Below the pieces are notes generated by a model. The model was not told where the DNA came from, made no database searches, and was given only the letters and a program-made list of their open reading frames with translations. Both the position numbers and the translations under genes were made by a program. A stretch of DNA of 64,000 nucleotides from Chiloscyllium plagiosum (taxonomy: Eukaryota): NCBI RefSeq assembly GCF_004010195.1, contig NC_057719.1, positions 14,658,416 through 14,722,415 on the forward strand. The letters run 5' to 3'. This document shows, in pieces, positions 1 through 61,790 of the stretch. How positions within the stretch are numbered: position 1 is the stretch's first letter; every line of letters begins with the position of its first letter.

Positions 1-165
1 CACCTATTGTACTCTATGCTAAGTTCTCCCCACCCCCACTCCCTCTCATTTATCTCTCCACTCTGCAGGCACCCTGCCTCTATTCCTGATGAAGAGCTTT
101 TGCCCGAAATGTCGATTTTCCTGCTCCTTGAATGCTGGCCGACCTGCTGTGCTTTTCCTGCATTT
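1..165 (+). mobile_element. PLE 3'-terminal (pLTR) fragment, family A, with HHR motif at 86-113
   Basis: ttc-CTGATGA-a-gagc-tttt-gccc-GAAA-tgtc followed by ctgctcc..gatgctgcc..cctgctgtgcttttcc; the same sequence ends the PLE at 61709-61882. Confidence 0.75.
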
Positions 166-169
166 TCTA

Positions 170-520
170 CAAGATGCACTGCAGAAATTCACCAAGACGC
201 CTTCGAGAGCACATTTCAAACCCATGACCTCTACCACCTCGAAGCACAAGGGCTGCAGATACCTGGGAATATCATCTGTAAGATCCCCTCCAAGCCATTC
301 ACCAGCATAATTTGGAAATATATCGCCATTCCTTCAGTGTTGCTGGATCAAAATCCTGGAACTGCCTCTCTAAAAACACAGTGGGTTTACCTACACGCAT
401 GAACTGCAGCGGTTGAAAAGATCAGCTCACCAACTACCTTCTCAAGAGCAACTAGGGACGGCCAATAAATGCTGGCCCACCAGGTGATTCACAAATCCCG
501 TGAACTGAATTTAAAAATCA
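170..520 (+). mobile_element. Decayed LINE 3' end (CR1/L2-like) sharing its tail with SINE family 2
   Basis: Ends agggacggccaataaatgctggccc..atcccgtgaactgaattt, the same tail as the SINE copies at 15195-15490 and 43465-43797. Confidence 0.55.
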
Positions 521-984
521 CATTATGATCATGTACAAAAAGTGTCGTATGAATGCGAGAAATGTTTGTAGTATGTTGAAAAATGTTTCAAAATCAAGAC
601 AAGTCAGTGCTATAAAAATGCTCTGGCCTCAGTGGAATATTGGGCATAGCACTTTTGGAAGGAAATCATAGCATTAGAGGCTAGAAATGATTTAGCAGAA
701 TTATCCAGAGATGAGAGGCTATAGTAATATGGACAGATTATAGAAGCTTGGGGTGATTTGCTCATTTAAGAGATGATTAAGAGGAGACTTTTTAGAAAGG
801 TGCAGTCGAGACTGAGCAGACACGAGATACCATTTCCATGGGTGGAAGGTTTGAGAATCTGAAGATATTGATTTACTTAGCATAGACTCTCGTTCTTGAG
901 AGCTTCAAGGTGAATACAGAGTGGACTCCCGGGCTCAGCGTGGACTCCCAGCCTCGAGGCCAATACAGACTTGAAGCTTTGAGG

Positions 985-1325
985 TGAAGCCCAGCGCAGT
1001 CTGGAGGCTAGGCCCAGTACGGTTTGGAGGTAAGGCCCGGTGCAGTCTGGTGGCAGGCCTGATGTGGTCTGGAGGTAAGGCCCAGTATGGCCTGGAGGCA
1101 AGGCCTAGTGTGGTCTGGAGGTGAGGCCCAGAGCAGAATAGAGGTGAGGCTCAGTGCAGTCTGGAGGTAAGATCCAGTGCGGTCTGGAGGCAAAGCCCAA
1201 TGCTGTCTGGAGGTAAGGTCCAGTGCGGTCTGGAAGTGAGGCCCAGTGCGGTGTGGAGAAGAAGCCCTGTGCAGTCTGGAGATAAGGTCCATGCAGTCTG
1301 GAGGCTCAGTGCCAGTATGGCCTGG
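985..1325. repeat. 23-bp minisatellite, about 14 copies
   Basis: Unit ggcccagtgcagtctggaggtaa repeated with substitutions; explains ORFs 877..1101 and 1008..1292. Confidence 0.85.
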
Positions 1326-2454
1326 GTTATTCTGAACTTTTTATTGCTTTATTTTTCTAACTTATTCCCATGACTTTTGTACTTAAGAATCTGTACCTCT
1401 GGACATTCGTACCTAAGATGTCACCATAATTGAAAAACTTTTCATGTGACAATAAAGCTAATTCTAATTCTAACAAAAACATGTTATGCACCTAGAAGGC
1501 AGCACTTAACAGTATGATGAAGAAAGACATATAGTGGGATTGAAAGGAGAATTGGATAAGCACTTTAAGAAAATAAAAGAACTTGCAGGACTGAAGGGAA
1601 AGAGCAACAGAACTGGACTAGCTGAGTTAATTTTATAGGGAACTTATGTGGATACAATCGACTGAATTATGTCCTTCTGAGCTGTAATAATGCTCTGATT
1701 CTATAATTATAAGTTTGAATGCGATTCTACATCAGAACTTGGTTATAAAGTTTTGTTTGAAGAAGACTTTTATTAAACACAAAATGTTGACCCTGGGTTT
1801 CTCTGCTCAGGCACTGCCAGATCTGTTGGGTTTCTCGAGCACTTTCTGTTTATATTTCAGAACTCCAGCATCCACAAGACTTTTATTTGTTTTGATGATA
1901 CCTTATCCTTTCTGAAGCTGTTTAAAAGTAAAATCATTCTTGAACCCAAGACTTTGGCTACTCATACTTTAACCCTCTTTGTCAGCTCAGAGCTCATTTT
2001 TGTGTATTATAATTCTGTGAAGGGATGTGGGCGTCACTGATTGGGTCAGCGTTTATTGCCCATTACCACACCACACTCAGTCTGTCTCTGCGACCTTATC
2101 CATTTCCCTCCAAGTCTCATGCTCTTCTCTTCTCACTATTGCCTGCAACATCTTCCTTCCCTAACTAGCAGCTACCCCAGAGTCTGATGCCACTACCCCT
2201 TCATACCCTCTGTGCTGCCTACTCACTCATTCAGGACCAGCAATTATAGCTGTGCCACCTATGTTTATCCTTCATAATACATGCTTCGCTGCCTCTCTAA
2301 TTGCATGAGGAAAACAGAGCACAATAGCGCAGAAAGACTCAAGATGAGTTGTGTTCTGCCCACCATTTTGCCACAGTCCCTTTCTGAGATGAGGGCCCTG
2401 ACACGTGTTTCCATGATGAAGAGAGCTCAGATAGACAAGAGCTGTAATCATTGG

Positions 2455-2817
2455 AGCAGAGGGGTTTGAGGGGGGTTATAATTACATAGAATTGTGAAAG
2501 GCATAGACTGGGTAGACAGGAAGGAACTTTTCCTTTTGGTAGAGGAATCAATGGCAAGAGGGAATAGATTTAAGGAGAGGGGTGGGACGTTACGAGGATG
2601 TGAGGAAATATGTTTTCACCTAGACAGTGGTAATCTCGAACTCACTGCCTGTAAAGAGGTGCAGAAGCAGGATCCCTCATAACATTAAATAAGTGTTTAA
2701 TTGTGCACTTGCATGACAAGGCTGGGAAATGGGATTAGTATACTTAGGTGCTTGTTTTTGACTGATGTGGACTCAATGGACTGACGAGCCGTTTCCTGTG
2801 TTGTAGACCTCTATGAC
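2455..2817 (+). mobile_element. CR1 LINE 3' fragment
   Basis: Decayed RLRGDLI/KGIDRVD coding end plus 3' UTR ending ctctatga. Confidence 0.75.
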
Positions 2818-2946
2818 AAAGTGAAGACTTCACATGCTGGAGATCAGAGACAAAACAATGTGGCACTGGAAAAGCACAGCAGGTCAGGAAGCTTCTGAGG
2901 AGAAGGAAGGTCAACGTTTTGGGCATAAGCTCTTCATCAGGAATGT
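2818..2946 (-). mobile_element. PLE terminal fragment, family A, with HHR-like motif
   Basis: Reverse complement reads attcctgatgaagagcttatgcccaaaacgttg...cctgacctgctgtgcttttccag. Confidence 0.7.
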
Positions 2947-4004: not shown

Positions 4005-4540
4005 TCATCTTGAGGTTGTACAGGACATTAGTGAGGCCTCTTCTGTAGTACTATGTCCAGTTCTGGTCATCCTGTTATAGATAGGGTCGTTGTTATTAAG
4101 CAAGAGAGGACTCAGAAGAGATTTACCAGGATGTTTCTGAGTAAAGAAGTTTTGAGTTATTAAGAAAGGCTGAATAGGCTGGGACCATTTTTTCACTGGA
4201 GCATAGGAGGTTGAGAAGTGACCTTATAGTGATTTATGACATCATGATATGATTAATGGTGAGTGTCTTTTCCCTGGGATGGGGTATTTCAAGACTGGAG
4301 GGCATATTTATAAGGTGAAAGGAGAGATTTAAAAAAGGCATGGGGGCAACTATTTTTTACATGTTCTATGAAAGTGAGGAAGCAGTGAATCAGGCACAGT
4401 TACAATGTTTAAAAGGTACTTAGATAAGTAGATGAACAGGGAAGGTTTGGAGGGATGTGGAGCTTAGCTTGGGATTATGTTCAGCATGGACTAGTTGGAC
4501 CAAAGGGTGTGTTTCTGTTCTGTATGACTCGATGACTCTG
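4005..4540 (+). mobile_element. CR1 LINE 3' fragment
   Basis: Decayed ORF2 C-terminus (VQFWSP/ERLNRLG-like) and (tatgactc)n tail. Confidence 0.8.
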
Positions 4541-9000: not shown

Positions 9001-9262
9001 TTGTACTGCACCCCTTTCACCACTATATTGTTCCCCTTTCACCACTGTACTGTTCCCCTTTCACCACTGTACTGTATCCCTTTCACTATTGTACTGCACC
9101 CGTTTCACCACTGTACTGTATCCCTTTCACTATTGTACTGCACCCGTTTCACCACTGTACTGTACCCCTTTCACCACTACACTATACCCTTTCACCATTG
9201 TACTGCACCCCTTTCACCACTGCACTGTTCCCCTTTCACCATTGTCCTGCACCCCTTCCCCC
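6045..9262. repeat. 22-bp satellite/minisatellite array, about 3.2 kb
   Basis: Unit ctgtactgtacccctttcacca repeated roughly 145 times (length divided by unit) with variants. Confidence 0.97.
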
Positions 9263-9454
9263 AATTCTGAAGTCTCTGCTGCTGAGGCTGCATTTGCTCT
9301 GACCCCTTAATTTCTCTGGTTGGACCAGACAGTGTGACCATGGCCCAACCCTTGACCAAAATGACCTGAGAACCCCAGGCATGACATGTTGCACTGCTAG
9401 TGTGTCTAGATCCAATGCATCTCCCTGACTGAATTAATCTTACAACCTCAGCCT

Positions 9455-9560
9455 CCGTTCTGACGAAGAGTCACTTAACTCAAAATATTAACTCTCTTTT
9501 CCTTTACAAATGCGGCAAGATCTGCTGTGTTTTTCCAACACTTTCTGTTTTTGTTTCTAG
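9455..9560 (+). mobile_element. PLE terminal fragment, family C, degenerate HHR at 9457-9492
   Basis: gtt-CTGACGA-a-gagtc-actt-aactc-aaaa-tatt-aac then ..gatctgctgtgtttttccaac. Confidence 0.6.
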
Positions 9561-12769: not shown

Positions 12770-13180
12770 GGACAGGCCCTTCGGTCCAGCCAGTCCATGT
12801 CGAACATTATCCCAAACTCAACTAGTCCCACCAGCCTGCTCCTGGCCCATATCCCTCCAAACCTTTCCCATTCGTGTAATTATCTACGTGTCTTTTAAAT
12901 GTTATAACTGTGCCTGCATTCATCATTTCCACACGTGAACCACCCTCTCTGTAAAAAAATTTCCCTCATGTCTTTTTTTAAAATCTCTCTCCTCTCACCT
13001 TAAAAATATGCCCACTGGTGAAAAAAATCCCAGTTGGATAAGTACATGAAGAGGCAAGGTTTGGAGGGATATGGGCTAAGCACAGGCAAGTGGGACTAGT
13101 TTAGTTTGGGATTGTGGTTGGCATGGTCTGGTTGGGCTGAAGGACCTGTTTCTGGGCTGTATGACTCTGTGACTCTATGT
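12770..13180. mobile_element. Two opposed CR1 3'-end fragments
   Basis: 12770-13015 is minus-strand 3' UTR; 13035-13180 is plus-strand 3' UTR with tatgactctgtgactctatg tail. Confidence 0.65.
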
Positions 13181-15490: not shown

Positions 15491-17214
15491 TGCAGCAATC
15501 ATGTGTGTATGACTGGTGAAGCAGGTTCAAGCTCTGCCTGGAATTATATTATTATTATTATTGATGAGTTTGGTGGCTGGAGGCTGGAGGTGAGATAGTA
15601 GTCAGAGAGATACAGTGGCTTCCCTCCTCCACTCTGATAAAACCTGCAGCTGGGGTTTTTCTGTCTCATCGCCAATCGGGGCCTGTGTATTGAGGAGAGG
15701 AGTCTCAGCCCACTGCTACCGGCATTCACTCCACGGTGGGAAAGGGAGGCCTATCACGTGCCAAGCCTGACAAGCAAACCTTGGTGCCTTTGCTTGCTAG
15801 CTCCAGGGAAGGTCAAGTCCCATTGCTCAAAGGTGCTCAGCACTTGATTGGTGGGCCCATCCTCAGCATAGGTGAGTCTGCAGCTAGCCAAGCCCTGATG
15901 TTATCTCTCACTCATCCATCTCCCAATCCTGCATCCCTCCTTGATCAAATAACCTGTATTGTTGTAGACCAGCAGTAACCATAAAGGTGCTGCTAAGTAC
16001 AGAAGAGTGCCCAGCTTTTAATTAGTCAACAGCTCTTGGTGTGCGGGCCTTTGACCCCCAGGGTCCTTGATCCTGGGGTGGCCAGAGCAGGCCTGTGCAG
16101 CACATGAGAAGCATAAGATGTGGTGGACCTTCCAAAAAACAGGCAACGTGGGGTCCTCTCCAGCTCTCCAGTCAAAAGCCCTTACCTTCACAAGATCTCA
16201 TCCATCGTGTGTGGTAAGCAATTGTAATCCTTGTGGTTTAACTTGGCATTGGTCTTCAAAGTACCTGTGCCCCACCAACTCTGACAGTTTGTCTAAAACC
16301 ACATTAACTTCCCATCTAATTAAAGGATATGGTAGCATAGAGGTTACTGTTACGAGACAACAGTTTCAGAGGACGGATGATCAAAAAACATGGGCTCATA
16401 TCCACCGTGGTTGCTGGGCAATTTAAACACAACTAATCAAATAAATCCCTAAGGGCAGCCAGAACATAAAACTACCAGATTCCTGTCATAAAAACCAAAC
16501 TGGTCACAGCTGTCCTCATAGAAAGGAAATCTGTTGACTCAACCCACGTGATCTATGTGGTACTCCAGATGCACAACAACATGATTGACTCTTAGCAGTC
16601 CTTCAGAGAAGTCTAAACACCAAATCATTGTGTTCAAGAAAGTGGCTGAGGGAAACTTTGTCAATAGAGCTGCACGGAAAAAGTTGGCTTTCTGAATAAC
16701 ACTGTAAAGACCATTTTTGTGTTTATTTTTGGATTCTGCATTAAAAATGGGAAAAGCTGCTGCTTTGAAGCAAGGAACTTGTAAAAAGATGTTTGATGTT
16801 TTGAAAACATGCTCCTGGAACACACTGTGAGTCGTATCAGCAATATTGCCTTATTCAAGCAATGAGAGAGCATTTCAGACAGAATGGCACTGTCTCTCTG
16901 AGTTTGAGAGAATTTTAGCATCATTGAGATTTCTAGCACAGAAAAACAATGCCCTTCAGCCCATCGAGTCTGCACTCGTCAAAGACCAGCACCAAACTTT
17001 TCGAATCCCATTTTTCATCACGTGTTAGATATGCTTTGGCATCACAAGTGCACATCTAAATACTTTGGCTTTTGATTTTGATTTTATTACCACATGTATT
17101 TTACAGTCAATATACAATAAAATACGGTGAAAAGCTTTCATTTGTCACCACAATATAGTGCCATTCTGAATTATTTAGGAACAAGGAATAAAAAAGGTGT
17201 AGATTGAAGAGAGT

Positions 17215-17398
17215 TGAAGAGTGTGGTGTTGGAAAAGCACAGCCGGTCAGGCAGCATCTGAGGAGCAGGAAAATCAACATTTCGGGCATAAGCCCTTCAT
17301 CAGGACAGTCTGCTCCTTGAATGCTACCTGACCTGCTTTGCTTTTCCAGCACCACACTGTTCAGCTCCGATCTCCAGCATCTGCAGTCCTCACTTTCT
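17215..17398. mobile_element. Fold-back mini-PLE, family A, with 17-bp TSD
   Basis: Inverted arms around an HHR (minus, 17275-17305); TSD tgtagattgaagagagt (17198-17214) / tgtagtttgaagagagt (17399-17415). Confidence 0.8.
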
Positions 17399-19619: not shown

Positions 19620-22243
19620 GGAGATGCCGTTGTTGGACTGAGGTGGACAAAGTTAAAAATCACACAACACCAGGTTATAGTCCAACAGGTTTATTGGGAA
19701 GCACTAGCTTTCGGAGCGCTGCTCCTTTATCTGGTGGTTGTGGAGAATAAGATCGTAAGACACAGAATTTATAGCATATGCTTACAGTGCGTTGTAACAG
19801 AAATTATATATTGAAAAAGATCTGGATTATTTGTTAAGTCTCTCTTCTTTTAGAATGACCATGTTGGTTTCAGTTCTTTCATATGTGAATCGCAGAACAT
19901 TTAAAATGTACATTCTCAAGTGAACTTTAACAACTGGTGTCATGTTGGCCCAGATAATGTATTGAAGGTGTGAGCTGTCCTGTGTGAGGCTGTCTGTGCC
20001 AGAATGCTCAGACTGATTCTAATCTAAAAAATGGATTTACAGAATCTTACATGGATTCATGCAGGTTTTGAGCAAAATAAAATGTAATTCTGCAAGTACA
20101 AATTCACCCCACAAACTTATATGTATTTGTGTGTGTATGTGGGCCTGCAGGTGGGTGCAGTGGTTATGAGTGTCTGTGAGAGGGTGTGTGTATGTGCATG
20201 AGTGTGAGTGTAAAGGGGTATAAGTCTGTGAAAGAGTGTGTGTGTGTGTGTGGGAGTGTATGTGTGAGCGTATGAGAGAGAGCTTGTGTATGAGAGACAG
20301 TCTGCATGAGTGTATGGGTCTGTCGGGGTGTGTGGGTGTGTGCGTGCAGTGAGGTCACCCGTAGTGTGACATGAACCCCATGGGTACCGAACTTGGTTAT
20401 CAGCCTCTGCTAGGCCACTTTGCATTGTTGCCTGTCCTGAAGTCTGCCTCGGAGGGCGGTCACCCTAAGGTCCGAGATTGAATGTCCTGGACCGCTGAAC
20501 TATTCTTCGACTGGAGATTTGATGACATTGACGACATTGATGACAGTTTTTTCCTCTGGACCCACGGCAAGGAGTCACTGAAGCAACTACAGAGTGATAT
20601 CAACGAGTTTCATCCCACCATCAAACTCACCACGGACTACTCTCTATTATCTGTCTCATTCTTGGACATGTGCATCTCCAACAAGGATGGGCACCTCAGC
20701 ACCTCATTCTACCTCAAACTCACATCGCTACATTTCTCCAGCTTCCACATGAAACATTTTAAAACAGCCATCCCCTATGGACAAGCCCTATGCATACACA
20801 GGATCTGTTCAGATGAGGAGGAATGTGATGGGCACCTGGAAGTACTCAAGGATACCCTCATAAGAACGGGGTACGTGCTCAACTCATCAACTGCCAGTTC
20901 CGACCTGCCACAGTGAGAAACCGTGATGACCTCCTCAGGAGACAGACACGAGCTGCAACCGACAGGGTACCCTTCTTTGTTCAGTACTTCCCAGGAGCCG
21001 AAAAACTACACCATGTTCTACGCAGCCTTCAACACATTATCGATGAGAATGAGCACCTCGCCAAGATCTCAATTTCTTGCCTTTAAACAACCATCAAACC
21101 TCAAACAGATCATTGATCGTAGCAAACTGCCCGGCTTTCAGGGCAACACCATACAACTCTGTTACGGTAGACGCTGCAAGACGTGTCAGCGTGTGGACAT
21201 GGATACCACCATTACACATGGGGACACCTCCCACCATGTACATGGCAGGTACTCATGCGACTCAGCCAACGTTGTCTATCTCATGCGCTGTAGGCAAGGA
21301 TGCCCTGAGGCATGGTACATTGACGAGACTGAGCAGATGATGAATGGACACTGCACAACAATCAAAAGACAGGAGTGTTCCCTCTCAATCGGAGGACACT
21401 TCAGCAGTCAGGGACATTCGACTTCGGACCTTCGGGTGACCGTTCTCCAAGACGGACGTCGGGACAGGCAATAGCGCAAAGTGTTCGAGCAGAGGCTGAT
21501 AGCCAAGTTTGGTACCCATGGCGATGGCATCAACCGGGACCTTGGGTTCATGTAACACGACAGGTGACCCCACTGCACTAAACACACACACACATGCACA
21601 CAGACACACACGCACGCACACAGGCACATACACGCATACAGACACACAAACACACACATGCACACAGACACACATGCACACACACACACACGCACACGTA
21701 CACTCACACTCACAAACGTACACACACTCTCTCACAAACACTCATAACCACTCCCCCATACACACACCTGCATACACACACAAATACATATAAGTTCGTG
21801 AGGTGAATTTGTACTTGCAGAATTACATTTTATTTTGCTCAAAAACTGCATGAATCCATACAAGATTCTGTTTTTTAGATTAGAATCAGTCTGACCATTG
21901 TGGCACAGACAGCCTCACACAGGGCACCTCACACCTTCAATGCATCATCTGGGCCGACATGACACCAATTATTAAAGTTAACTTGAGAATGTAACTTTAA
22001 AAAAGTTTTGCAATTTACATATGAAAGAACTGAAACTAACATATTCGTTCTAAACAAAAAAGACACTTAATAAACAATCCAGGTATTTTTCAATGCATAA
22101 GTTCAGTTACATCACACTGTAAACTTTTGCTATAAATTCTTCACCTTACACTCCACAACCACCTGAAGGAGCTGTGCTCCGAAAGCTAGTGCTTCCAAAT
22201 AAACTTATTGGACTATAACCTGGTGTTGTGTGATTTTTAACTT
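19620..22243 (+). mobile_element. Penelope-like element (family B), 5'-truncated, with a long inverted terminal repeat
   Basis: RT C-terminus (WRFDDIDD..FHPTIKLT..SFLD..KTAIPYGQALCIHRICS, 20482..20916) and GIY-YIG (NVVYLMRCRQGCPEAWYIDET, 20923..21474), both disrupted; about 19645-20510 is an inverted copy of about 21395-22243. Confidence 0.9.
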
Positions 22244-22589: not shown

Positions 22590-22940
22590 TCAATCAGCCA
22601 ACCCAAAGTCTCCAACTCTTAACCCTCATTATCACTTTGTCAGCTTCTCTTCTGTCCTGGCTTACCACCAATAAGTCCTTGTTTACCTTATCCCTTTCAT
22701 ACCTTTCTTTCTCTCTCTGTTCTCCATCTCCATCTATTCGTTCACTTCTCCCCCCAGCCCTCCCTCACCCTCAACCTCATCTTCAACTCTTTCCTGGCTG
22801 CTATCAGTTCTGATGAAGAGTCACTGGACTCGAGATATTAACTCTGCTTTCTCCCGACTGATACTGCCAGACATGCTGAGTTTTGCCAGCAATTTCTGAT
22901 TTTGTTTCAGATCTCCAGCATCCACATTTCTTTGTTTTAT
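22590..22940 (+). mobile_element. PLE 3' terminus, family C
   Basis: Similar to 50720-51010, which follows PLE coding sequence. Confidence 0.7.
22806..22843 (+). ncRNA. Minimal hammerhead motif, family C (GAAA mutated to GAGA)
   Basis: AGTT-CTGATGA-A-GAGTC-ACTG-GACTC-GAGA-TATT-AACT: 4-bp stem I and 5-bp stem II. Confidence 0.65.
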
Positions 22941-23830: not shown

Positions 23831-23930
23831 GAGCATGATGGATGGACGTGCCATCAGACAGGTAATGGCCAAACATGCTAAACTTTGGAATCAGTTCACA
23901 ACTGTACTGGCATGCACCTATTGGAAAGAT

Positions 23931-24120
23931 AAAACCAGGTTATAGTCCAACAGGTTTATTTGAAATCACAAGCTTTTGGAGCAGCGCTCCTTCATCAGGT
24001 GACCTCACAAAGGGGCAGTGCTGCGAAAGCTTGTGTTTTAAAATAAACCTGTTGGACTATAATCTGGTGTCGTATGACTTCTGACTTTGTCCACCCCAGT
24101 CCGATACTGGCACCTCCATG
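23931..24120. mobile_element. Fold-back mini-PLE, family B, with 12-bp TSD
   Basis: Inverted arms ccaggttatagtccaacagg / cctgttggactataatctgg; HHR on minus strand at 23966-24002; TSD tattggaaagat (23919-23930) / tattggaaaaat (24121-24132). Confidence 0.8.
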
Positions 24121-24801
24121 TATTGGAAAAATGGGTAGTGAAGTAAACACTGCGTTATGGTGAAAATTGTGTTAATCGAAACTGATTTGATTGACGATTA
24201 TCTGTCGTGATTTGATAAAGTCACCGTTTCTAATGCCTAATGGACAAATAACCTAGGGAGGACTGATTGAAGGCAATTGGCAAAGGAACCAGAGGTGACT
24301 TGAGGAACAATTGTTTTTACAGAATGCCTGGTTAGGATTTGAAACATACTGCCTGATAGTGTAACGGATCTAAATTCAGTAGTAGCTGTCAAAAAGGAAA
24401 TTCAATTAATACTTAATAGAGAGAAGCAAAATGCAAAATATAGGGACGTGAAGGGGATTGAAACTAACTGGATCATTCAGAAGAGTTGATGAACTGAAGG
24501 GCATTTTTCTACATTGTACTGTTTAATGACTCTATAGAGTAAAAATATCCCAAAATCCTTCACAAAAGTATTGTCCTGAAATATCTGTGGAAGCTCAATG
24601 TAATTGAGAGTCCGCCAACTGGCCCATGGTCCCCATTTGCTTATTAGAACAAAGGCTGCAGGCAGGCTTGGTCAATACAGGCCAACCTTAATAATGCATC
24701 TGTCACATCTTGGCTATCAATGTTGGAGCTGAGGTGACTCTCCTTTCCACCGACTTCCCACTATCTGCTATTTTCAATTGGTGTCAAGAGGGTCAAGAGG
24801 A

Positions 24802-24930
24802 TTCCCAAAGAAGGGCTTATGCCTGAAACGTCAACTCTCCTGCTCCTCGGATGCTGCCTGACCTGCTGTGCTTTTCCAGCACCACACACTTGATTCTAAC
24901 CTTCCAGCATCTGCAGGCCTCACTTTCGCC
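24802..24930 (+). mobile_element. PLE terminal fragment, family A
   Basis: cccaaagaagggcttatgcctgaaacgtc...ccagcatctgcaggcctcactttc. Confidence 0.75.
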
Positions 24931-25279
24931 TATTTTCAATTAGTGTCTGCCTATACCTCAGGCAAGAAATGGCTAGACAGTTCTAAGATTTCACTAAAAC
25001 ACAAAACATTATTGAAACAGCAGATCTGTGAAGGGTTAGCATTAAAGAGTTAACCTTAGAAGCCCAAAATGATTTTGCAGAAATACCCATGTCAGAAGAG
25101 TGAACTAGTCTGTTTTCTCCAACAACGTTGTCTGAGCTGCTGAGCAAATTCAGTAGTTTATGTTCAAAGTTCAGGTTCCCAGCTGTTTATTTTTGTGCTT
25201 TTGCTTGTGAGGTACACTGGAAATCTTAAGGACGCACTGACTTCCTCAGCAGAATTGCTTATCTTATTGGATGTAGCTT

Positions 25280-26214: not shown

Positions 26215-26757
26215 GGGGTGGTACAGTAGTTTCGTGATTAGCACAGTTGCCTCACAGTTCCAATCGCCCAGGTTTGATTCCAGCCTTGGTTGACTGACTG
26301 TCTGGAGTATGTATGTTCTCCCTGGGTCTGTGTTGGTTTCCTTCCACAGTCCAACTATATGCAGAAGGCGCTGGAACAGCTCAGCAGGTCAGGCAGCATC
26401 TGTGAAGAGAAGTTAAGGTTAACATTTTGAGTCAGAAGGGTCACTGGACCCAAAACATTAACTTTGATTTCTCTTCACAGATGCTGCCAGGCCTGAGCTT
26501 TGCCAGCAACTACTGTTTTTATTTCTGACTTATAGCATCCGTACTTTTTGGTTTTCAAAGATATGCAGGTTGGGTGAATTGGCCATGCTAAATTGCCCAC
26601 AGTGTCCAAGATGTGCAAACTAAGTGGGTTAGCCATGGAGTATGCAGGGTTAGGGGGATAATAGGTCTGGGTGGGATGCTCCTCAGAGGGTCGGTGGGGA
26701 CTCGATGGATCAAATGGCCTGTTTCTACACTGTAGGGATTCTATAGTATTCTATGAT
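26215..26757 (+). mobile_element. HE1-type SINE interrupted by a family C fold-back mini-PLE (26365-26560)
   Basis: The SINE halves join across a duplicated atatgcag (26357-26364 / 26561-26568). Confidence 0.8.
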
Positions 26758-27174: not shown

Positions 27175-27385
27175 GAGAGTGGGGAGCTGGAAAAGCACAG
27201 CAGGTCAGGCAGCGTCCGAGGAGCAGGATAATCGATGTTTCGGGCAAAAGCCAGTCATCAGGAAAGGGCTCTTGCCCAAAATGTCGATTCTCCTGTTCCT
27301 CGGATGCTGCCTGACCGGCTGTGCTTTTCCAGCACCCCACTCTCGACTCTGATCTCCAGCATCCGCAGTCCTCACTTTCTCCTTT
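27175..27385. mobile_element. Fold-back mini-PLE, family A, with perfect 12-bp TSD
   Basis: About 80-bp inverted arms meeting at back-to-back HHR motifs; TSD tgcattaatgat at 27163-27174 and 27386-27397. Confidence 0.85.
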
Positions 27386-28124
27386 TGCATTAATGATCCT
27401 ACTCACAATGCTTTCACAAAGCATCCCTACTCAGTCTTTTTTAAAAAAGCATAAATAGTCATGAAGCATGATGATTTATGCCAATATCGCTTTTGCATCA
27501 TTTCCTCTATTTATGTTGTTATACAGATATTTTCTTCAATTATTTTATGCTGATGACATTCCCACTGGAATATCTTTCTAAAGGGTGACAATGTCAGGGG
27601 TCTGGATTAATATGAGCATGACAGACATCAGTCTGAAAGCATTCCTCCAATCTGTCAAGCATGGAAAAGTTTCCAAGGTTATTGACGTCATACATGTGCA
27701 CCATCTAAACAAAAATATTCAGCCAACTCATTCAAAATGTCCAAAGGAAGTTAGAAATTAGGATCCTGCATCCTGACAATTTAATACTTTAAAAGGAAAC
27801 CTTGCTCTCGTTTTGTGAGAAGATACCACTAATTCTGATTTGACACATACAAATTGCAGGTCGAAAATTTCACTTTGCTGTAGCTCCATGATCACCTCTC
27901 ATGTTCAACCATTTAATTACCACATCCTTGAATTACCACATCCTTAAATCAATTATTTATGAAGCAACTGGTCTTCTAAACTTCAGTTGAATCTTGCTGT
28001 GCTAAACCCGTTTGTTCTGTGATGGAAAAAACACAGATATTGTTGGAGAAACTGTGTAGAGCATCTGTAGTAGAGAAAGCAGAGTTAACGGTTTGAGTCC
28101 AGTTCCCTTCTGTTCTGAAGAACA

Positions 28125-35154: not shown

Positions 35155-35350
35155 GTGAAAAGAACAAATGCTGGAGGTCACAGCAGGTCAGGCAGCATCC
35201 ATGGAGAGAGAGCAAGCTAATGTTTCAAGTCTAGATGAATCTTCATCAGAGCTGAAGTAAAGTGTGGAGGGGACAGTATTTATGCTATAGTTGCAGGGGG
35301 CGGTTGTGGGGTGTAGCGTGCTGGGGAGAAAAGATGGTGATAGCATGTGG
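35155..35350 (-). mobile_element. PLE terminus, family C variant, with HHR at 35215-35253
   Basis: Minus strand: AGCT-CTGATGA-A-gattc-atcta-gactt-GAAA-catt-AGCT, then ..gatgctgcctgacctgctg. Confidence 0.7.
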
Positions 35351-37372: not shown

Positions 37373-38538
37373 ACGAACAGTTATTTAATTGTTGACCCAC
37401 ATCCTCAGCAGTGATGAAGTTTGTGGAGATCTTTGACATCTTGGTGAATTTTACCAATTATCATTTTCACTAGATGCTGTCTTTTGAGATGCTGAGGAGA
37501 AACCAGGGAGACAATCTTTCAGTCCTTGAAGTTATCAATCATGCTTTTTTTTCTTCCTGCCTTGTTGCTCAAAAGCAGCTCTTGAAATATTCAGTGTGTA
37601 TTCCTGAGTCTGACTTCATTGTCTTTTGAAGATAGATCATTTGCAGGTGAGCCCTTCAATGTGTGAAGTTATTTACTTATCTATGCTACTTAACTCTGCC
37701 TATATTGCTCGCAAGACAAAATGTTTCACTGTGCCTCGGTACACGTGACAATAAATTCAATACAAGTGTGAATTAAAGCAGGTCCTTTGTTTCTTGATGC
37801 CTGATTGTCTGAGTTTCCTGATGTGTTGATTGCCTGGTCTTTGTGTCTTTGGATAAAATGCTAATTCCAATGCAGACAGTTTCACTTATTTCACATTCTC
37901 CTCCTCTTTCACCAATCATATTTGCATTTTAGGGCAGTATTTTCACTTTGTTAAGAAAATAGTTTAGTCCAAGCAAAGTCTCAGGTAAAACAATCAGAGG
38001 ATAGGAGCTAAAATTTGGTAATCCACAAACATAAGAAAATATAAATAGTACATAAAGAGCAGAAAGAAAACAATTACAAAAATTATTTTGGGATAGAAAT
38101 TGATGTACAAAAATGGCCACAACATTTTTAAAATTTGACAGAAGCATAACTGTACCTAAACTGCTCAGGTTTTGGTCAGATTTGAAAGAAACCTGAATCA
38201 GGAATGATGTCTTTTTCATATGTAAAGAGGGGATTACTGTCTGTCATTGATGACTTTGTTTAGGTGATGAGGACTGAAGAACAATTTCAGTTGGTCCGTG
38301 GATCTCTAGTCTGTGTATATGCTTTTCATAAAGCTCTGAGTCTGAGTGCAGACCAGAATTTACTTCTTCAGGGCTAAACTAAATAGAGTTTGATGATAGA
38401 TAAGTAGATGAATATGAACAGATCTCGGCCAAGCGCAGGCAGGTGGGACTAGTTTAGTTTGGGATTATTGTCAGCATGGACTGGTTGGACCGAAAGATTT
38501 GTTTCCATGCTGCATGATTCTATTACTCTATGACTGTA

Positions 38539-39017
38539 GCCATGATGCCGTGGTGCTGGGGTGGACAAAGTTAAAAATCACACAACACCAGGTTATAGTG
38601 CAACAGGTTTATTTGGAAGTACTAGCTTTTGGAGCGCTGCTCCTTCATCAGGTAGCTAGTGGGGCATGATGATAGGACGCAGAACTTATAGCAAATTTAT
38701 AGCTACTCCTCATGAAGGAGCAGCGCTACAAAAGCTAGTACTTCCAAATAAACTTGTTGCATTATAACCTGGTGTTGTCTGATTTTTAACTTTGTCCACC
38801 CCAGCACCTTGTCATCATGGCTACAAACAGACTTAACAGCCATCTAGATTTGTTCAATATATAGTATCAGTTGCATGCCACTATGAACATGTACTATAAA
38901 TTCTGTCTTATGATACTGTCCCACTAGCTACCCAAAGAAGGAGCAGCGCTCCAAAAGCTAGTACTTCCAAATAAACCTGTTGGACTATAACCTTGTGTTG
39001 TGTGATTTTTTAACCCA
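38539..39017. mobile_element. Non-coding family B PLE-derived element: one inverted and two tandem HHR-bearing units
   Basis: HHR-like motifs at 38620-38654 (-), 38709-38740 (+) and 38929-38963 (+); TSD atgactgta at 38530-38538 and 39018-39026. Confidence 0.8.
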
Positions 39018-48655: not shown

Positions 48656-49744
48656 GCTGAGAACGCCCTGATCGATTCATGTTGTGCAACCTGAACTGGA
48701 TGCCAAAAACAATTTTTAAATTTTTTACAAACTTACAGACAGTCTGCTACTTTCTTCTACGACAATTGTCAAAAGAACCTGAGAAGAGAGGAGGAGAAAA
48801 GAATTGTGCCGCAAAGTCTTATGATCTGAAGTGAGATTTTGGAACAGGTAGTAGAAGGACATTAAAGTATAACTTGAAGAAGGGAATAAAATAAGTCCTT
48901 ATAATAGAAATAATTGCAAGGTAATGAGGGATAATGAGGGAAGTAGAACAAACTGGATCACTATCTTAATGAACCAGCAGAGGCACAATTGACTGAATGG
49001 TCTCCTCAGCTGCATTGTTCAGCAACTTTATGATCTGCATATCCTACTTTATCTCTTCGAACTATATTTTCTGCCTCCGCACTACATTCTATATGCCACA
49101 TGGTTTTCTTTACGCTAATTTTAATGACAAACATGATGGATTCGTTACTGAAAATACAAGAGAGATTATATTATTAGGTTTCAAACTATGCATTGACTTC
49201 TGTTGCTAAGCATAGCTACTTAAGTTATTTACTTGGAACACAGTGGGCAATAAATACAGCAAAGCATCATTAACTGAGGAACTGTGGACCTATTTGCTGG
49301 CATTACTCCAATAGTGAACTTTATACTGATTGGAAGAAATGTAGCTGTGCCAGAGGATATTACTGCTGCACCTTGGCTGTAGTATCTGTACAAATGTTTT
49401 TTCTCTGACTTCTCCTTGGTTTTCTTGCTTTACTTTGAGATTTCTACTTTGCTCCAATCAAAGTGTAAAGTTGCTATCCCATTTAAGATCAGGATACAAC
49501 TCTGTGCTCTTGCTGTGGAACATCCATGTATTATGCCTAGAGTTGATATCAGGGAGCAGATTTCCATATTTGTTGGGGGTATCAGGAAAAAGTACTTATC
49601 CCATCTTCTATTCTAGCCTTGGTCTTGAGATTACCAGGATCCCAGGAGGAAAATCCAGTAAAAATTGTGAAAATGCACACTTTTCTGACCTGCTTTGTTT
49701 CCCTCAAGAACAATGCTCCAGTAAGACCAGTATGTTCATTTCCA

Positions 49745-51010
49745 AGTATTTCTGAGGAAAGGCTGGACACCAGTATTCACCACACACCCACTGACCCCAA
49801 CAATTACCTGGGCTATACAGCCTCACACCCTGCTTCCTGTAAAGACTCTATTCCCTTCTCCTGGTCTCCCTCCAGTGGTGCATCTGTTCTGTTAGTGCCT
49901 CTTTCTGCAAGGAAGCCTCTGAAATGTCCACTTTTCCCCTCAATGGAGGGTTCCCTGCAACTATGGTTAACAGGGCCCTCAGTCATCTCCCACACTCTTG
50001 ACCTTACCCCTTCTCTTCCCTCCCACAACAACAATAGGATCCACCTTGTCCTTACCTATCACCTCATCACACATCCAAAAGATTGTAAGCCACCATATTT
50101 GCTACCTTCTGTGAGATGCCACCACCAGACACATACTCCCCTCTTCTCCTTTGTTAACATTCCAGAAGGACTGCCCCTTCCAGGATACTGCCCCCACATC
50201 CCTACACCTCTACACACCCCATGGCACCTTACCATGCAATTGCAGAAGGTGTAACACTTGCCCATTTACTTCTTCCCTCCTCACTACCCTAGGCCCCAGA
50301 CACACTTTCCCAGTGAAACACCAGTATGGTATAGTGATTTGCCAGCATTTCATTCATCTGGTCTCATGTAATCACTGCTCACAATGCTGTCTCATCTACA
50401 CTGGGGAGACAAAAAGCAGACTGGGTGACCGCTTTGTGGAGCACCTCTGTTCTCTCTGTGAAAATGCTCTGATTTTCCTATTGCCTGCTACTTCAACACA
50501 CCACCGTGTTCCCTGGTCATTATCTCTGTTCTGGGCCTGTGACAGTGCTCCAGCGAAGTTCAGAGCAAACTGGAAGAACAGTACCTCATTTTCCACTTGG
50601 GAAACCTGCAGCCTTCAGGACTCAATATCGAGTTCAATAACTTTAAGGCCTGATTATCTTTACCAGTGTCCTTACCTCAACCCCCACACACCAGGCCCTG
50701 TCATCACATGAGCTGCTTTCTTCCTAACCAACCCATTTTCACCAACTAATGGTCCATATTGTAAGCTTTCCTTTCCCCCCGGCTTACCATTATCCATCCC
50801 TTTGTCTGTCCAATTGCTGTTGTCTCTGGGCTCCATCTCCATCTATTGTTCACTCCTTCCCCCTCCCCTCAACTCATCTTCAGCATATGTACCAATGTTT
50901 TCCTAGCTAGCATCAGTTCTGAAGAAGGGTCACTGGACTTGAAAGGTTAACTCTGATTTCTCTCCACAGATGCTGCCAAACCTGCTGAAACTTTTCATTA
51001 ATTTCTGTTT
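49745..51010 (+). mobile_element. Penelope-like element (family C), decayed RT C-terminus + GIY-YIG + HHR-bearing 3' end
   Basis: RLDTSIHHTPTDPNNYLGYTASHPASCKDSIPFS; CSQCCLIYTGETKSRLGDRFVEHL; HHR at 50915-50952. Confidence 0.85.
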
Positions 51011-51631: not shown

Positions 51632-51915
51632 CCTAACCCTAACCCTAACTGTTAACCTAATCCGAAACCAAAACCTAACTCGAGTCTTAACTCTAGCCCT
51701 AGCCCTAGCCTCAACCCTAACCCTAACCATAACCCCGCCAATCCTAACTCTAGCCCCAACCCTAACCCTAACCATAACCCCCCAACCCTAACTCTAGCCC
51801 CAACCCTAACCGTAACCATAACCACTCTAACTCTAGCCCCAATCCTAACCGTAACCATAACCCCCTAACCCTAACTCTAGACCTAACCCTAAACCTAGCC
51901 ATAATTCTAATTGTA
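51632..51915. repeat. Degenerate interstitial telomere-like (CCCTAA)n array
   Basis: ccctaa hexamers mixed with ctctag, ccccaa, ccgtaa and ccataa variants. Confidence 0.85.
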
Positions 51916-53824: not shown

Positions 53825-54091
53825 ACCTTGTTGGAATAGCCACTCTAATTTTCATTCTCCCCTGCTTTCAAAATGTCATCAAATATTAGGAATGTAACTC
53901 ATTTTTTTGCTCTCTGTCTGTAGTTTGGAGTTCCCTGGATGCTGCCTGACCTGCTGCGCTTTTCCAGCAACACATTTTCAGCTCAACCTTGTTGGAATAC
54001 CCACTCTAATTTTCATTCTTCCCTGTTTTCAAAATGTCATCAAATATTAGGAATGTAACTCATTTTTTTGCTCTCTGTCTGTAGTTTGGAG
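53825..54091. repeat. 106-bp direct duplication flanking a 55-bp family A PLE fragment
   Basis: 53825-53930 is nearly identical to 53986-54091; insert 53931-53985 = ..ggatgctgcctgacctgctgcgcttttccagcaacac.. Confidence 0.9.
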
Positions 54092-55436: not shown

Positions 55437-56130
55437 TTATCAAAGCATTTCGTCTTGCATTCATAGAGTCATAGAGCATGGAAGCAGATCATTCAGTTCA
55501 ACTCGCTCATGCTGACCAGATATTTTAAGGCAATCTATTCCCTTTGCCAGCACTTGGCCGATGTCCCTTTAAACCCTTCCTATTCATATACCCATCCAGA
55601 TGCCTTTTAAATGTTGCAATTGTACCAGCCTCCACTACTTCCTCTGGCAGCTCATTCCAAACACGCACCATTTATCAGGACAATTCACAGGAAATAGCAA
55701 AGCAAATGGAGAAGAACGTTTACTCTGTATATCAGGTTATTGCTGATTCGTTGGCGAGTGGCCTCTGGTTGGTCCAATTAGAGATCTTCCCATGAAGACT
55801 GCTCTAATCAATGATGACCAACAGTGAACTGGTGTTCCCCACAAGCTCTGAGGCCTAATTCCCATCATTCCAGCTGTATAGATGTAGCTAAAACCACGGA
55901 CTACCCAGTGGAGAGTCTGTTCAAGACTCTTTAAAGAAGAAGTTGGAGACAGGAATTCTCGAAATGGTGCTCTTCACTGTCTTGGTTACCTGAATCGGTT
56001 CATCTGCACTGGAGAGCCTTTTATTGGTTCTCCAACTTTTCCAAAGTGGTAATATATATTTAGAGAGCTCAATCTCTGTAAACCTAGATAGTTAGCAGCT
56101 TTGCAATGCTGGCCCTCAATTTATATATGG
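55437..56130 (-). mobile_element. Putative old PLE 3' end (GIY-YIG remnant + HHR), split by a CR1 3' fragment (55465-55668)
   Basis: KVGE..NKRLS..QMNRFR-like remnant near 55990-56045; the HHR core can be rebuilt across the CR1 insertion. Confidence 0.45.
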
Positions 56131-59060: not shown

Positions 59061-59249
59061 AAATTCCCTGTTTTTCTACTGCCAAGTGAAAAATGTGGAG
59101 GCTGCCAAGGAAACACTGGCATCCCCATGACCAATGGCCAACAGCGGGGTGACAGACTGGCCAAGTTGTAGACTCCAACAGAAGATGAGGTGTTGGGGGC
59201 AGGAGGTGAGGGGGCTCTGGCATTTGAGAGGCCGTGAGAAGAATATGAC

Positions 59250-59900
59250 CTGTTGTGGTTCCATTCGCCGAGCTGGGAATTTGTGTTGCAGAAGTTTCGT
59301 CCCCTGTCTAGGTGACATCCTCAGTGCTTGCGAGCCTCCTCTGAAGCACTTCTGTGATGTTTCCTTTGGCATTTATAGTGATTTGTACCTGCTGCTTCCG
59401 GTTGTCAGTTCCAGCTGTCTGCTGCAGTTGGGTCCAGGTCGATGTGCTTATTGATTGAATCTGTGGATGAGTGCCATGCCTCTAGGAATTCCCTGGCTGT
59501 TCTCTGTTTGGCTTGTCCTATAATAGTAGTGCTGTCCCAGTCGAACTCATGTTGCTTGTCAAATGTTTTTGATGTATGGTAGTGTGGCTAGTCCTTTGGG
59601 TTGTGACATGTCCTCATTCCGTTGTATTTCCCTTAGGCATCTGTTGATGAAATTGCACGGGTATCTGTTTTTGGTGAATACATTGTATAGGCGTTCTCCT
59701 TACTCTTTTTGCAGTTCTGGTGTACTGCAGTGTGTTGTGGCCCTTTTGAACAGTGTCTTGATGCAACTTCTTTTGTGTGTGTTGGGGTGGTTGCTTTCGT
59801 AGTTTAGGACTTGGTCTGTGTGTGTGGCTTTCCTGTATCCCATTGTGGTGAATTGGCCGTTTGGTGTTCTCTGTACATCACATCTAGGAATGGGAGTTGA
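59250..59900 (-). mobile_element. Penelope-like element (family D), internally deleted, HHR at 59288-59327
   Basis: YRKATHTDQVLNYESNHPNTHKRSCIKTLFKRATTHCS (PLE RT C-terminus); minus strand GCA-CTGAGGA-T-gtcacct-agac-aggggac-GAAA-cttc-TGC. Confidence 0.8.
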
Positions 59901-60273
59901 CCTCAAGTGTACAATAAAATCTCATGGAGAGGTGCTTCTGATGAGTTTAGGAGCCTGTTAAAGAGGACCCTTCCCACCAGCCACCAGACAATGCAGGAAA
60001 ACCTGCACAGCCGTGCACTTGGCATGGAAATCTCCCATCGTGGTCAAACACTGGAGGCAGTCAGATGAGACCCTGTAATGAACATTCACTATCCACATAA
60101 GGACCCCAGTTGGGTCCAACGGCAAGCAGACCAGTCCCCAATAACCCCTTGCTGCTGATTGGTGGCACTCCATCTGCTGACTTGAATAAACTCTGTTTTC
60201 ATACCATCAAATTGGGTACATCCTAGCTGAGGCCTTGAGGATAAGGGTAGTTAAAGCCTATGCAATTAAGGGA

Positions 60274-60365
60274 TAAAGTTAAAAGTCACACAACACCAGG
60301 TTATGGTCCAACAGGTTTATTTGAAATCACAAGCTATCAGAACGTTGCTCCTTCTTTCGGTGAAA
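60274..60365 (-). mobile_element. Family B PLE terminal fragment
   Basis: aaagttaaaagtcacacaacaccaggttatggtccaacaggtttatttgaaatcacaagc. Confidence 0.7.
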
Positions 60366-60924
60366 TAAAATTAAGGGGTAGGATCAGGATGGAAGAGGAT
60401 AGCATTGAGAAAGAAGAGTAGTCATAGTCGGGTGGAATGATGGTGAAAGCCCAATGTGACGTATCCAGGAACTCCTGTTTCATATTTTCTTGGATACTTT
60501 GTGCTTATATATAAAAGGTTTTGCATATAGTACACATCCATCACCTATCGGGTAGACATACAAATGTTTGATTTTTTCTTTGTTGGCTACATAGAACAAT
60601 TGATCTTCCATAATTACACCGGCATCACTCCCCAACTCTCCCTCCGCTACGTTGATGACTGCATTGGCGCCACCTCATGCTCCCGCGAAGAGGTTGAGCA
60701 ATTCATCAACTTCACCAACATACCTGGACCATCTCTGACACCTCCCTCCCCTTCCTGGACCTCTCCATCTCCATAAATGACAAACGACTTGACACTGACA
60801 TTTTTTACAAACCCACCGACTCCCACAGCTACCTGGATTACACTTCTTCCCACCCTATCTCTTGCAAAAATGCCATCCCGTATTCCCAATTCCTCCGCCT
60901 CCGCCGTATCTGCTCCCAGGAGGA

Positions 60925-61708
60925 NNNNNNNNNNNNNNNNNNNNNNNNNNNNNNNNNNNNNNNNNNNNNNNNNNNNNNNNNNNNNNNNNNNNNNNNNNNN
61001 NNNNNNNNNNNNNNNNNNNNNNNNNNNNNNNNNNNNNNNNNNNNNNNNNNNNNNNNNNNNNNNNNNNNNNNNNNNNNNNNNNNNNNNNNNNNNNNNNNNN
61101 NNNNNNNNNNNNNNNNNNNNNNNNNNNNNNNNNNNNNNNNNNNNNNNNNNNNNNNNNNNNNNNNNNNNNNNNNNNNNNNNNNNNNNNNNNNNNNNNNNNN
61201 NNNNNNNNNNNNNNNNNNNNNNNNNNNNNNNNNNNNNNNNNNNNNNNNNNNNNNNNNNNNNNNNNNNNNNNNNNNNNNNNNNNNNNNNNNNNNNNNNNNN
61301 NNNNNNNNNNNNNNNNNNNNNNNNNNNNNNNNNNNNNNNNNNNNNNNNNNNNNNNNNNNNNNNNNNNNNNNNNNNNNNNNNNNNNNNNNNNNNNNNNNNN
61401 NNNNNNNNNNNNNNNNNNNNNNNNNNNNNNNNNNNNNNNNNNNNNNNNNNNNNNNNNNNNNNNNNNNNNNNNNNNNNNNNNNNNNNNNNNNNNNNNNNNN
61501 NNNNNNNNNNNNNNNNNNNNNNNNNNNNNNNNNNNNNNNNNNNNNNNNNNNNNNNNNNNNNNNNNNNNNNNNNNNNNNNNNNNNNNNNNNNNNNNNNNNN
61601 NNNNNNNNNNNNNNNNNNNNNNNNNNNNNNNNNNNNNNNNNNNNNNNNNNNNNNNNNNNNNNNNNNNNNNNNNNNNNNNNNNNNNNNNNNNNNNNNNNNN
61701 NNNNNNNN
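60925..61708. other. Assembly gap (784 N)
   Basis: Run of N. Confidence 1.
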
Positions 61709-61755
61709 CACCCTCCTCTAGCTTATCTCTCCACGCTTCAGGCTCTCTGCCTTTA

Positions 61756-61790
61756 TTCCTGATGAAGGGCTTTTGCCCGAAACGTCAATT
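61756..61790 (+). ncRNA. Minimal type-I hammerhead ribozyme motif with intact core
   Basis: CTGATGA (61759-61765)-A-GGGC-TTTT-GCCC-GAAA-CGTC (61786); stem I is weak in this copy. Confidence 0.7.

What the first reader, a model, noticed from the sequence alone, without database searches (positions are those of the whole stretch)
81..61790. Dispersed minimal hammerhead ribozymes in four to five unrelated PLE-terminus families
Seen: more than 15 motifs of the form stemI-CUGANGA-N-stemII-GAAA-NNUH-stemI'. Family A (GGGC-UUUU-GCCC): 86, 2915, 17275, 24805, 27235, 61759. Family B (GGAGC-AGC-GCUCC): 19702, 22160, 23966, 38620, 38709, 38929. Family C (GAGUC-ACUG-GACUC): 9457, 22806, 26425, 35215, 50915. 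Family D: 59288. Probable family E: 55437/55683. Stem II sequences are unrelated between families but always pair. Families A-D each have a copy directly downstream of PLE RT and/or GIY-YIG coding sequence. Established: PLEs carry minimal type-I hammerheads in their terminal repeats. Inference: this genome holds very many such motifs, about one per 4 kb here, which standard repeat annotation would not label. Whether these families are already described cannot be judged from the window.
Basis: partly seen in the sequence, partly recalled or inferred. Interest (0 to 1): 0.8.

Follow-up and report, generated by a model that had tools for sequence, protein, structure and literature searches.

The report
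Penelope hammerhead stubs in a shark
The window is strewn with mostly decayed end-pieces of Penelope-like jumping genes that carry a known tiny hammerhead-ribozyme motif; this shark-like genome holds about 229,000 intact-looking cores, and many stubs begin four bases before the motif, likely the capped start of an uncut RNA.

Summary
[quoted passage not shown] Of 18 listed A-D sites, 7 keep an intact catalytic core and 3 also an unbroken helix II; the rest are worn, mostly by CpG decay. 'Always pair' fails, A and C are related, and family E is unconfirmed. A-D each have PLE coding sequence upstream (A-C Neptune-type, D Poseidon-type). Genome-wide, a core-only pattern gives 229,115 hits against 927 for its control; about one PLE end per 3.3 kb. 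Neighbouring copies are inverted, not tandem, so most stubs cannot form cis dimers. The extra result: 5' ends of A-C stubs pile up just before the ribozyme (family A mode at -4; 19 versus 2 at the cut site), 29-32 bases behind a TATA-like box, with an excess of non-element G at the junction (71 G to 29 A). That suggests reverse transcription running off the cap of uncleaved RNA. Earlier scan notes saw the pile-up; my look-up found none on the G. Cleavage and RNA ends are untested.

The parts
86..113 (+). Family A hammerhead motif, core intact, helix II broken
2913..2940 (-). Family A motif, G12 lost by CpG decay; copy starts at -4
17211..17398 (.). Family A inverted pair; minus-strand motif 17276-17303 has intact core and helix II, plus-strand arm is tail only
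24801..24934 (+). Family A stub starting four bases before a motif (24805-24832) with two core changes
27175..27386 (.). Family A palindrome; minus-strand motif 27234-27261 core intact, helix II broken
60576..60922 (+). Family A PLE reverse-transcriptase fragment, followed by an N gap (60925-61708)
   Evidence: relatives 87-93% identical in a bamboo shark for the same family's RT
61715..61872 (+). Family A 3' end: weak TATA-like TTATCT (61723-61728), initiator-like stretch with A at 61755, motif 61759-61786 (core and helix II intact, helix I broken), tail
19620..20513 (-). Family B inverted 5'-truncated copy with tail; motif 19705-19733 has two core changes
20482..21543 (+). Family B broken RT thumb, C-x4-CxxC linker and GIY-YIG region
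22131..22243 (+). Family B 3' end: TATAAAT (22131-22137), motif 22163-22188 with a 3-base core deletion, no tail
23927..24123 (.). Family B palindrome centred on the motif's 5' edge (motifs 23970-23998 minus, 24004-24032 plus), both decayed
38535..39010 (.). Three family B ends (38623-38651 minus, 38709-38737 plus, 38932-38960 plus), all with G12 lost
60271..60363 (-).
9454..9557 (+). Family C end; motif 9460-9489, G12 lost
22714..22938 (+). Family C end; motif 22810-22839, one core change
26362..26555 (.). Family C palindrome; both arms truncated inside the motif, no CUGANGA
35181..35255 (-). Family C stub; motif 35219-35249 core intact, helix II broken
49547..50708 (+). Family C broken RT thumb, C-x4-CxxC linker and GIY-YIG region
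50913..51010 (+). Family C 3' end: initiator-like TCAGTT (50913-50918), motif 50919-50948 with core, helix II and 4-bp helix I intact, palindrome changed
59311..59663 (-). Family D (Poseidon-type) endonuclease-end fragment and 3' UTR with TATAAAT at 59377-59371
59291..59324 (-). Family D motif: core intact, 7-bp helix II with one internal mismatch, 3-bp helix I; ATG at the start of helix II
55437..55683 (-). Proposed family E: half-motifs at 55683-55674 and 55462-55437 flanking a CR1 fragment; unconfirmed

Best explanation
These are end-pieces of at least four Penelope-like retrotransposon families whose terminal repeat carries a minimal hammerhead motif, and most are decayed stubs likely made when reverse transcription began inside the RNA about 100 bases downstream and ran off the RNA's capped, uncut 5' end just in front of the motif. 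In a full-length RNA the motif is present twice; the two copies would pair through their 4-base palindrome (ACGU or AGCU) to complete helix III and, probably with help from the element's protein, cut after GUC, GUU or CUA. Such a cut would remove the short capped leader and free a unit-length RNA. The scattered stubs sit alone or back to back, so they would not form such dimers in cis and they decay after insertion. Shown: motif anatomy, link to PLE coding sequence, copy number, arrangement, 5'-end pile-up, G excess in one listing. Inferred: internal priming (from the lizard element in vitro), start-site position, cap copying, any cleavage.
For: Anatomy matches the published minimal motif: bulged base before a G-C closed helix II, palindromic 15.1-16.1, helix I 2-4 bp with different pairs per family (UC/GA, CAC/GUG, AGUU/AACU, GCA/UGC). 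47 of 53 core-pattern hits in 762 kb of sampled DNA have a helix II of 4 bp or more that the pattern did not ask for. 229,115 versus 927 control. PLE coding upstream in A-D; tandem repeat-ORF-repeat at L154. Family A, 156 copies from 80 position-chosen loci plus the window and two flanks: 39 inverted pairs, 0 tandem within 400 bases; 5' ends 19 at -4, 11 at -3, 2 at the cut site +28 (p=1e-4). C: 34 of 83 at -5..-1; B: 33 of 103 at -10..-1; D: 0 of 42 between -12 and +45. TATA-like box at -34/-33 in 6 of 7 long C copies and -40..-36 in 20 long B copies. Junction base before A(-4): 71 G, 29 A in the first 100 of 8,012 hits (counted by eye; expected G share 0.41, p=1.5e-9; 52 of 81 after removing explainable cases, p=2.4e-5); long copies have only C or T there (51 of 51). 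PMC11167929: ribozyme mutants do not change insertion, no RNA reads end at the cut site, two internal RT starts.
Against: The G excess rests on one listing from the first 30 Mb of one contig; in held loci it is 8 G to 6 A (p=0.17), and B and C show only 1 G of 3 informative cases each. Ends are spread from -12 to -1 and many A stubs start at -5 to -11. Family A has only a weak TATA-like word and only a 2-bp helix I in most subfamilies. None of 30 near-full-length A copies starts at -4 or at +28; the four that reach the upstream repeat start at about +38 to +97. Monomers do not fold into the active shape. No RNA data were examined.
Confidence: 0.62

Rival explanations
1. Same elements and same known motif, but the 5' pile-up is a copying artefact: the polymerase pauses or folds back just after the helix II hairpin, where short self-complementary words (TTCC/GGAA) allow template switching, and the RNA really starts further upstream.
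For: Half of family A copies are in inverted pairs, many joined at TTC microhomology; 66 of 100 breaks at -3 carry C, largely from such joints; ends are spread over about 10 bases. Self-priming on an antisense template was proposed for rotifer PLE palindromes (PMC3846280, passages).
Against: Family D has a longer hairpin yet no pile-up; the pile-up shifts with TATA spacing between B and C; breaks at -2 and -1 show 6 G to 11 A against 71 to 29 at -4 (Fisher p=0.011; different samples).
Confidence: 0.27
2. The ribozyme cut defines the template's ends: unit-length RNA is cut, circularised and copied round the circle, and stubs are early terminations on the circle.
For: Model proposed in PMC4209133 (Discussion read); explains tandem copies such as L154 and the 26 of 156 A copies that run past -60. 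It can coexist with the best explanation.
Against: A circle has no end at -4 and no cap; no excess of ends at +28 (2 of 156); PMC11167929 found uncut RNA to be the main substrate in vitro.
Confidence: 0.15
3. The stubs are a separate non-autonomous family (SINE-like or retrozyme-like) transcribed from solo copies and active as ribozymes.
For: Uniform 95-130-base size and about a million copies; solo repeats that keep the upstream TATA box could make short RNAs.
Against: Stub sequences match the ends of long coding copies of each subfamily; stubs lack the upstream promoter-like words; no tandem arrays; G12 is lost at the CpG rate (80% kept, like other CpG sites at 65-76%).
Confidence: 0.08
4. 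Chance matches to a short pattern.
For: The motif is short; Rfam gives no hit.
Against:: controls at or near zero and unasked-for pairing.
Confidence: 0.01

Closest known systems
Minimal type-I hammerheads (min-HHR) in the pseudo-LTRs of metazoan PLEs (Cervera and De la Pena 2014, PMC4209133; parts 1-2 of 4 read)
   Same: Core, bulged base before helix II, G10.1-C11.1, no helix III but a palindrome, several families per genome, mostly solo copies of truncated PLEs, pairs on opposite strands.
   Different: About 229,000 core matches here against about 4,000 (coelacanth) and 9,000 (Xenopus tropicalis) there, with different descriptors; helix II 4-5 bp and helix I 2-4 bp in A-C, shorter than their schistosome families; no shark is mentioned in the parts read.
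Poseidon element of Anolis carolinensis (Frangieh et al. 2024, PMC11167929; parts 1-2 of 4 read)
   Same: Family D has the ATG at the start of helix II and two alternative 3' ends about 37 bases apart, as in that element's tail.
   Different: A-C are Neptune-type; in A the first ATG of the long frame lies about 40 bases past the tail. That paper does not report 5' ends piling at the ribozyme or a cap-derived G in the parts read.
Insertion architecture of endonuclease-positive PLEs: 5' truncation, inverted copy, optional tail, TATA/Inr-like words in the repeat (PMC8557442, PMC3846280, PMC2377424; passages)
   Same: [quoted passage not shown]
   Different: In Drosophila virilis the promoter is TATA-less and an intron lies between start site and ribozyme; here the inferred start is at the ribozyme's first helix.
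Non-LTR retrozymes (PMC7229834 passages; bioRxiv 10.64898/2026.07.22.740005 part 1 and passages)
   Same: Type-I hammerhead, PLE-related, high copy number (axolotl up to 120,000).
   Different: Those are head-to-tail arrays of 170-400-base units with mostly canonical hammerheads; here 0 tandem neighbours among 156 A copies.
Extra G at 5' junctions of full-length L1 insertions (PMC11702581, one passage)
   Same: G not encoded by the element at the junction, read as a copy of the cap.
   Different: Here it is on 100-base stubs and only shown for family A.

Membership tests
PLE minimal hammerhead | Conserved core CUGANGA...GAAA...UH | tested here: met
   Met by family-type copies; by 7 of 18 listed window sites
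PLE minimal hammerhead | Unpaired base after A9, G10.1-C11.1 closed helix II | tested here: met
   47 of 53 sampled hits have 4 bp or more (the closing G and C were part of the pattern); helix II differs between families
PLE minimal hammerhead | Palindromic 15.1-16.1 segment instead of helix III | tested here: met
   34 of 53; ACGU in A, C, D and AGCU in B, departures mostly CpG decay
PLE minimal hammerhead | Helix I of about 4-5 bp | tested here: inconclusive
   C 4 bp, B and D 3 bp, A mostly 2 bp (36 of 53 sampled hits), one A subfamily 4 bp; a 2-bp helix I is published for D. virilis
PLE minimal hammerhead | Located in the terminal repeat flanking a PLE ORF | tested here: met
PLE minimal hammerhead | Self-cleavage as dimer or with protein | not testable with these tools
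   needs in vitro assay
Neptune-type PLE (A, B, C) | C-x2-5-CxxC linker between RT and C-terminal GIY-YIG | tested here: met
   C-x4-CxxC read in all three; Nematis shares this linker (PMC8557442 passage)
Neptune-type PLE (A, B, C) | RT groups with named Neptune elements in a tree | not tested
   no named reference sequences held
Penelope/Poseidon-type PLE (D) | No cysteine linker before the endonuclease; ORF starts in the ribozyme | tested here: met
   RT about 30% identical to A; no tree built
Non-LTR retrozyme | Head-to-tail tandem units each with a hammerhead | tested here: not met
   0 tandem pairs among 156 A, 1 among 28 B, 0 among 36 C; no such array in the window
Rfam hammerhead families | Match to a covariance model | tested here: not met
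   no hammerhead hit at E<=1

The most novel reading that the evidence does not exclude
Hundreds of thousands of stubs are fossil strong-stop cDNAs that map the Neptune transcription start to the first strand of the ribozyme's helix I: the hammerhead sits at the very cap end of the RNA, uncut capped RNA is the template for reverse transcription, and cleavage would act as a self-decapping switch. A jump from the cap to the 3' repeat would also explain how PLEs rebuild their promoter-bearing repeat, an open question.
Probability: 0.4. Interest if true: 0.62.

Novelty: new member of a known kind. Interest (0 to 1): 0.33.

Why it matters
The motif itself is published, so the catch adds a host and a number: more intact-looking minimal hammerheads than in any count I saw in the papers read. 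What could matter is the insertion record. How PLEs are copied, what their ribozyme does and how the terminal repeat is regenerated are unresolved; a fixed start site at the ribozyme's edge with a cap signature gives base-level predictions that 5'-end sequencing and an in vitro assay can test.

Tried and rejected
First descriptor demanded too much and found 1 site; relaxed. Rfam: only microRNA-like hits on palindromes. Pfam missed the decayed window frames and found RVT_1 and a weak GIY-YIG on better copies. Cleavage-defined 5' ends: no peak at +28. Search for a complete family A 5' end: 20 long loci, then 30 and 30 more; none starts at -4 or +28; the assembly has gaps inside young copies. Independent check of the G excess in held loci: same direction, not significant. 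Family E: one genome match, itself (that search skips common words), none in 1.48 Mb held. Monomer folding gave no active fold, z between -1.85 and +1.34. A splice boundary at the ribozyme edge was considered; stubs show unrelated upstream sequence rather than a shared exon (listing, not tested formally). Lunse et al. 2017 on dimer cleavage is not held; known only from the review PMC6765202 (passages). Searches for prior description in sharks or of cap run-off in PLEs found none, but the library lacks most subscription papers and Repbase or Dfam entries; supplements of PMC4209133 and PMC11167929 were not opened and may bear on both.
Full report
Setting. The window lies in a 3.56-Gb genome. The family A reverse transcriptase is 87-93% identical to proteins named from a bamboo shark and at most about 59% to the rest, so the host is taken to be a shark (inference). 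Numbering below: C3 of the hammerhead core is 0; in family A cleavage would give a 5' end at +28.

Observation. All 18 listed A-D sites hold family copies and the window has 29 PLE ends. A strict descriptor gives 3 hits against 0 in 12 shuffles, a one-mismatch descriptor 7 against 0.33. Only 7 of 18 keep the whole core, 3 of 18 also an unbroken helix II, none every feature (with 35249 re-read). The commonest damage is CpG decay of G12. Proposed family E is two half-motifs around a CR1 fragment, has no pairing helix II and no second copy. Rfam has no match.

Family anatomy. From intact copies held: A has a 4-bp helix II, ACGU palindrome, GUC site, helix I mostly 2 bp; B a 5-bp helix II, AGCU, CUA site, 3 bp; C a 5-bp helix II, ACGU, GUU site, 4 bp; D a 7-bp helix II with one mismatch, ACGU, GUC, 3 bp. 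B, C and D rows come largely from loci picked by a family pattern, so their uniformity is partly built in; the unbiased check is, where 47 of 53 core-pattern hits pair in helix II and 34 of 53 keep the palindrome. This is the minimal motif of Cervera and De la Pena (PMC4209133, parts 1-2 read), who report low cleavage even in dimers.

Link to PLEs. tblastn places RT or endonuclease sequence upstream of one copy each of A (across an N gap), B, C and D; ungapped A examples and a repeat-ORF-repeat tandem about 3.1 kb long exist elsewhere. A, B and C carry a C-x4-CxxC linker, the Neptune/Nematis mark (PMC8557442, passage); D lacks it and has its ATG in helix II like the Anolis Poseidon element (PMC11167929). 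A and C share their 3' segment and 56-64% RT identity, A and B 39%, A and D 30%. No tree was built.

Abundance. Tight family patterns: A 18,413, B 3,552, C 288, D 4,040, controls 0. A family-free core pattern: 229,115 against 927, one per 15.5 kb; 80 position-chosen 10-kb loci give 53 in 762 kb, in agreement. Counting worn copies, 230 ends in 762 kb, one per 3.3 kb, roughly a million by extrapolation. Published counts I saw: about 4,000 and 9,000 minimal motifs (PMC4209133), over 6,000 type-I motifs in a coral and up to 120,000 retrozyme copies in axolotl (PMC7229834, passages). Descriptors differ, so this is not a proven record.

Are the scattered copies working ribozymes? Probably not. The motif needs a same-strand partner. 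Among 156 A copies, 39 neighbouring pairs within 400 bases are inverted and none tandem; B has 1 tandem pair in 28, C none in 36 (the short 'convergent' distances there are back-to-back pairs whose projected anchors overlap). G12 is kept in 80% of 94 anchored copies, close to other CpG positions (65-76%), although the anchoring filter favours core positions. Monomers fold helix II only or a wrong outer helix.

Where copies begin. Copies were found by the segment downstream of the cut site and aligned to long copies. Family A, 156 copies from the 80 loci, the window and two flanks: 19 start at -4, 11 at -3, 45 in -5..-1, 2 at +28, 26 run past -60. C: 34 of 83 in -5..-1. B: 18 of 103 in -10..-6 and 15 in -5..-1. 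D: 34 of 42 run past -60 and none starts between -12 and +45. B, C and D totals include pattern-picked loci. Long copies show TATAAA-like words at -34/-33 in C (6 of 7) and -40..-36 in B (20), a weaker TTATCT near -36 in A, and at -53 in D; the A at -4 (A, C) or -8 (B) lies 29-32 bases behind and in an initiator-like context (consensus and spacing recalled, not from a call). Genome-wide, 8,012 intact A copies have a purine at -5, where long copies have only C or T (51 of 51); the first 100 are 71 G and 29 A by my count, against an expected share of 0.41 (p=1.5e-9; 52 of 81 after dropping 11 inverted-arm and 8 duplication cases, p=2.4e-5; 49 of 78 after also dropping 3 near-duplicates, p=9e-5). 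Breaks one base later show 34 G and 66 C in the first 100 of 5,435. An extra G marks cap copying in full-length L1 insertions (PMC11702581, one passage). Against: held loci give only 8 G to 6 A, B and C show no G excess on 3 cases each, ends are smeared over about ten bases, and none of 30 near-full-length A copies starts at -4.

Mechanism. The lizard element starts reverse transcription at two internal sites downstream of its ribozyme, does not need cleavage to insert, and cleaves only with protein (PMC11167929). B and D copies here end at two positions about 35-40 bases apart (by inspection). If A-C RNAs start at the ribozyme's edge, priming on the 5' repeat runs off the cap after 95-130 bases and leaves a stub headed by an uncut hammerhead; fold-back gives the inverted twin; priming on the 3' repeat gives long, randomly truncated copies. 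D would start further upstream or use its 5' repeat less. The ribozyme would act only in full-length RNA, as a dimer of the two repeats, removing the capped leader. All of this paragraph beyond the mapped ends is inference. The main rival is pausing or template switching at the hairpin.

Novelty. The motif and its PLE context are published; the scan's own notes report the same families and the 5' pile-up in other pieces of this genome, which is not independent support; my pile-up result was obtained before reading them. A look-up for cap or untemplated bases in this genome's notes found nothing, and paper searches found no description in sharks or of cap run-off in PLEs, within a library that lacks most subscription journals. 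Verdict: new member of a known kind, interest 0.33; the cap run-off reading, probability 0.4, would deserve about 0.6.

Noticed in passing
window 6047-9257: 22-base tandem repeat, about 146 copies, strongly strand-skewed; gives long false open frames.
   Followed up: no
window 23152-23508 minus: 119-residue open frame in unique sequence; Atlas look-alikes include DDE_1/Tigger-type clusters at 0.92-0.93, Pfam only a weak unrelated hit: probably a DNA-transposon relic.
   Followed up: partly
window 61908-63533, 45331-47082 and many shorter pieces: CR1-type LINE fragments (RVT_1 hit), the other dominant repeat; one piece splits the proposed family E motif.
   Followed up: partly
window 12772-13182: Two LINE fragments in inverted orientation forming a long hairpin; source of the Rfam microRNA-like hits.
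   Followed up: no
window 50949-50975 and family A-C 3' segments: Downstream of the cut site C has a branch-point-like word, pyrimidine run and CAG directly before an ATG; A and B have similar acceptor-like words further on. Possible intron end in the PLE leader, or just pyrimidine richness.
   Followed up: no
window 24805, 38932, 60359: Three copies in two families read CCAAAGA or CGAAAGA at the first core box, hinting at an older subfamily with a changed core; only 3 of the first 100 intact B matches had C at U4.
   Followed up: partly
L019:9735 and 9 more sampled copies: A second Poseidon-type family (D2) with its own helix II and a 4-bp helix I, absent from the window.
   Followed up: partly
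window 51632-51904: Degenerate CCCTAA-like telomeric repeat patch inside the chromosome.
   Followed up: no
window 53825-54091: 106-base direct duplication (97% alike) flanking a family A tail fragment at 53930-53984: unusually long for a target duplication.
   Followed up: no
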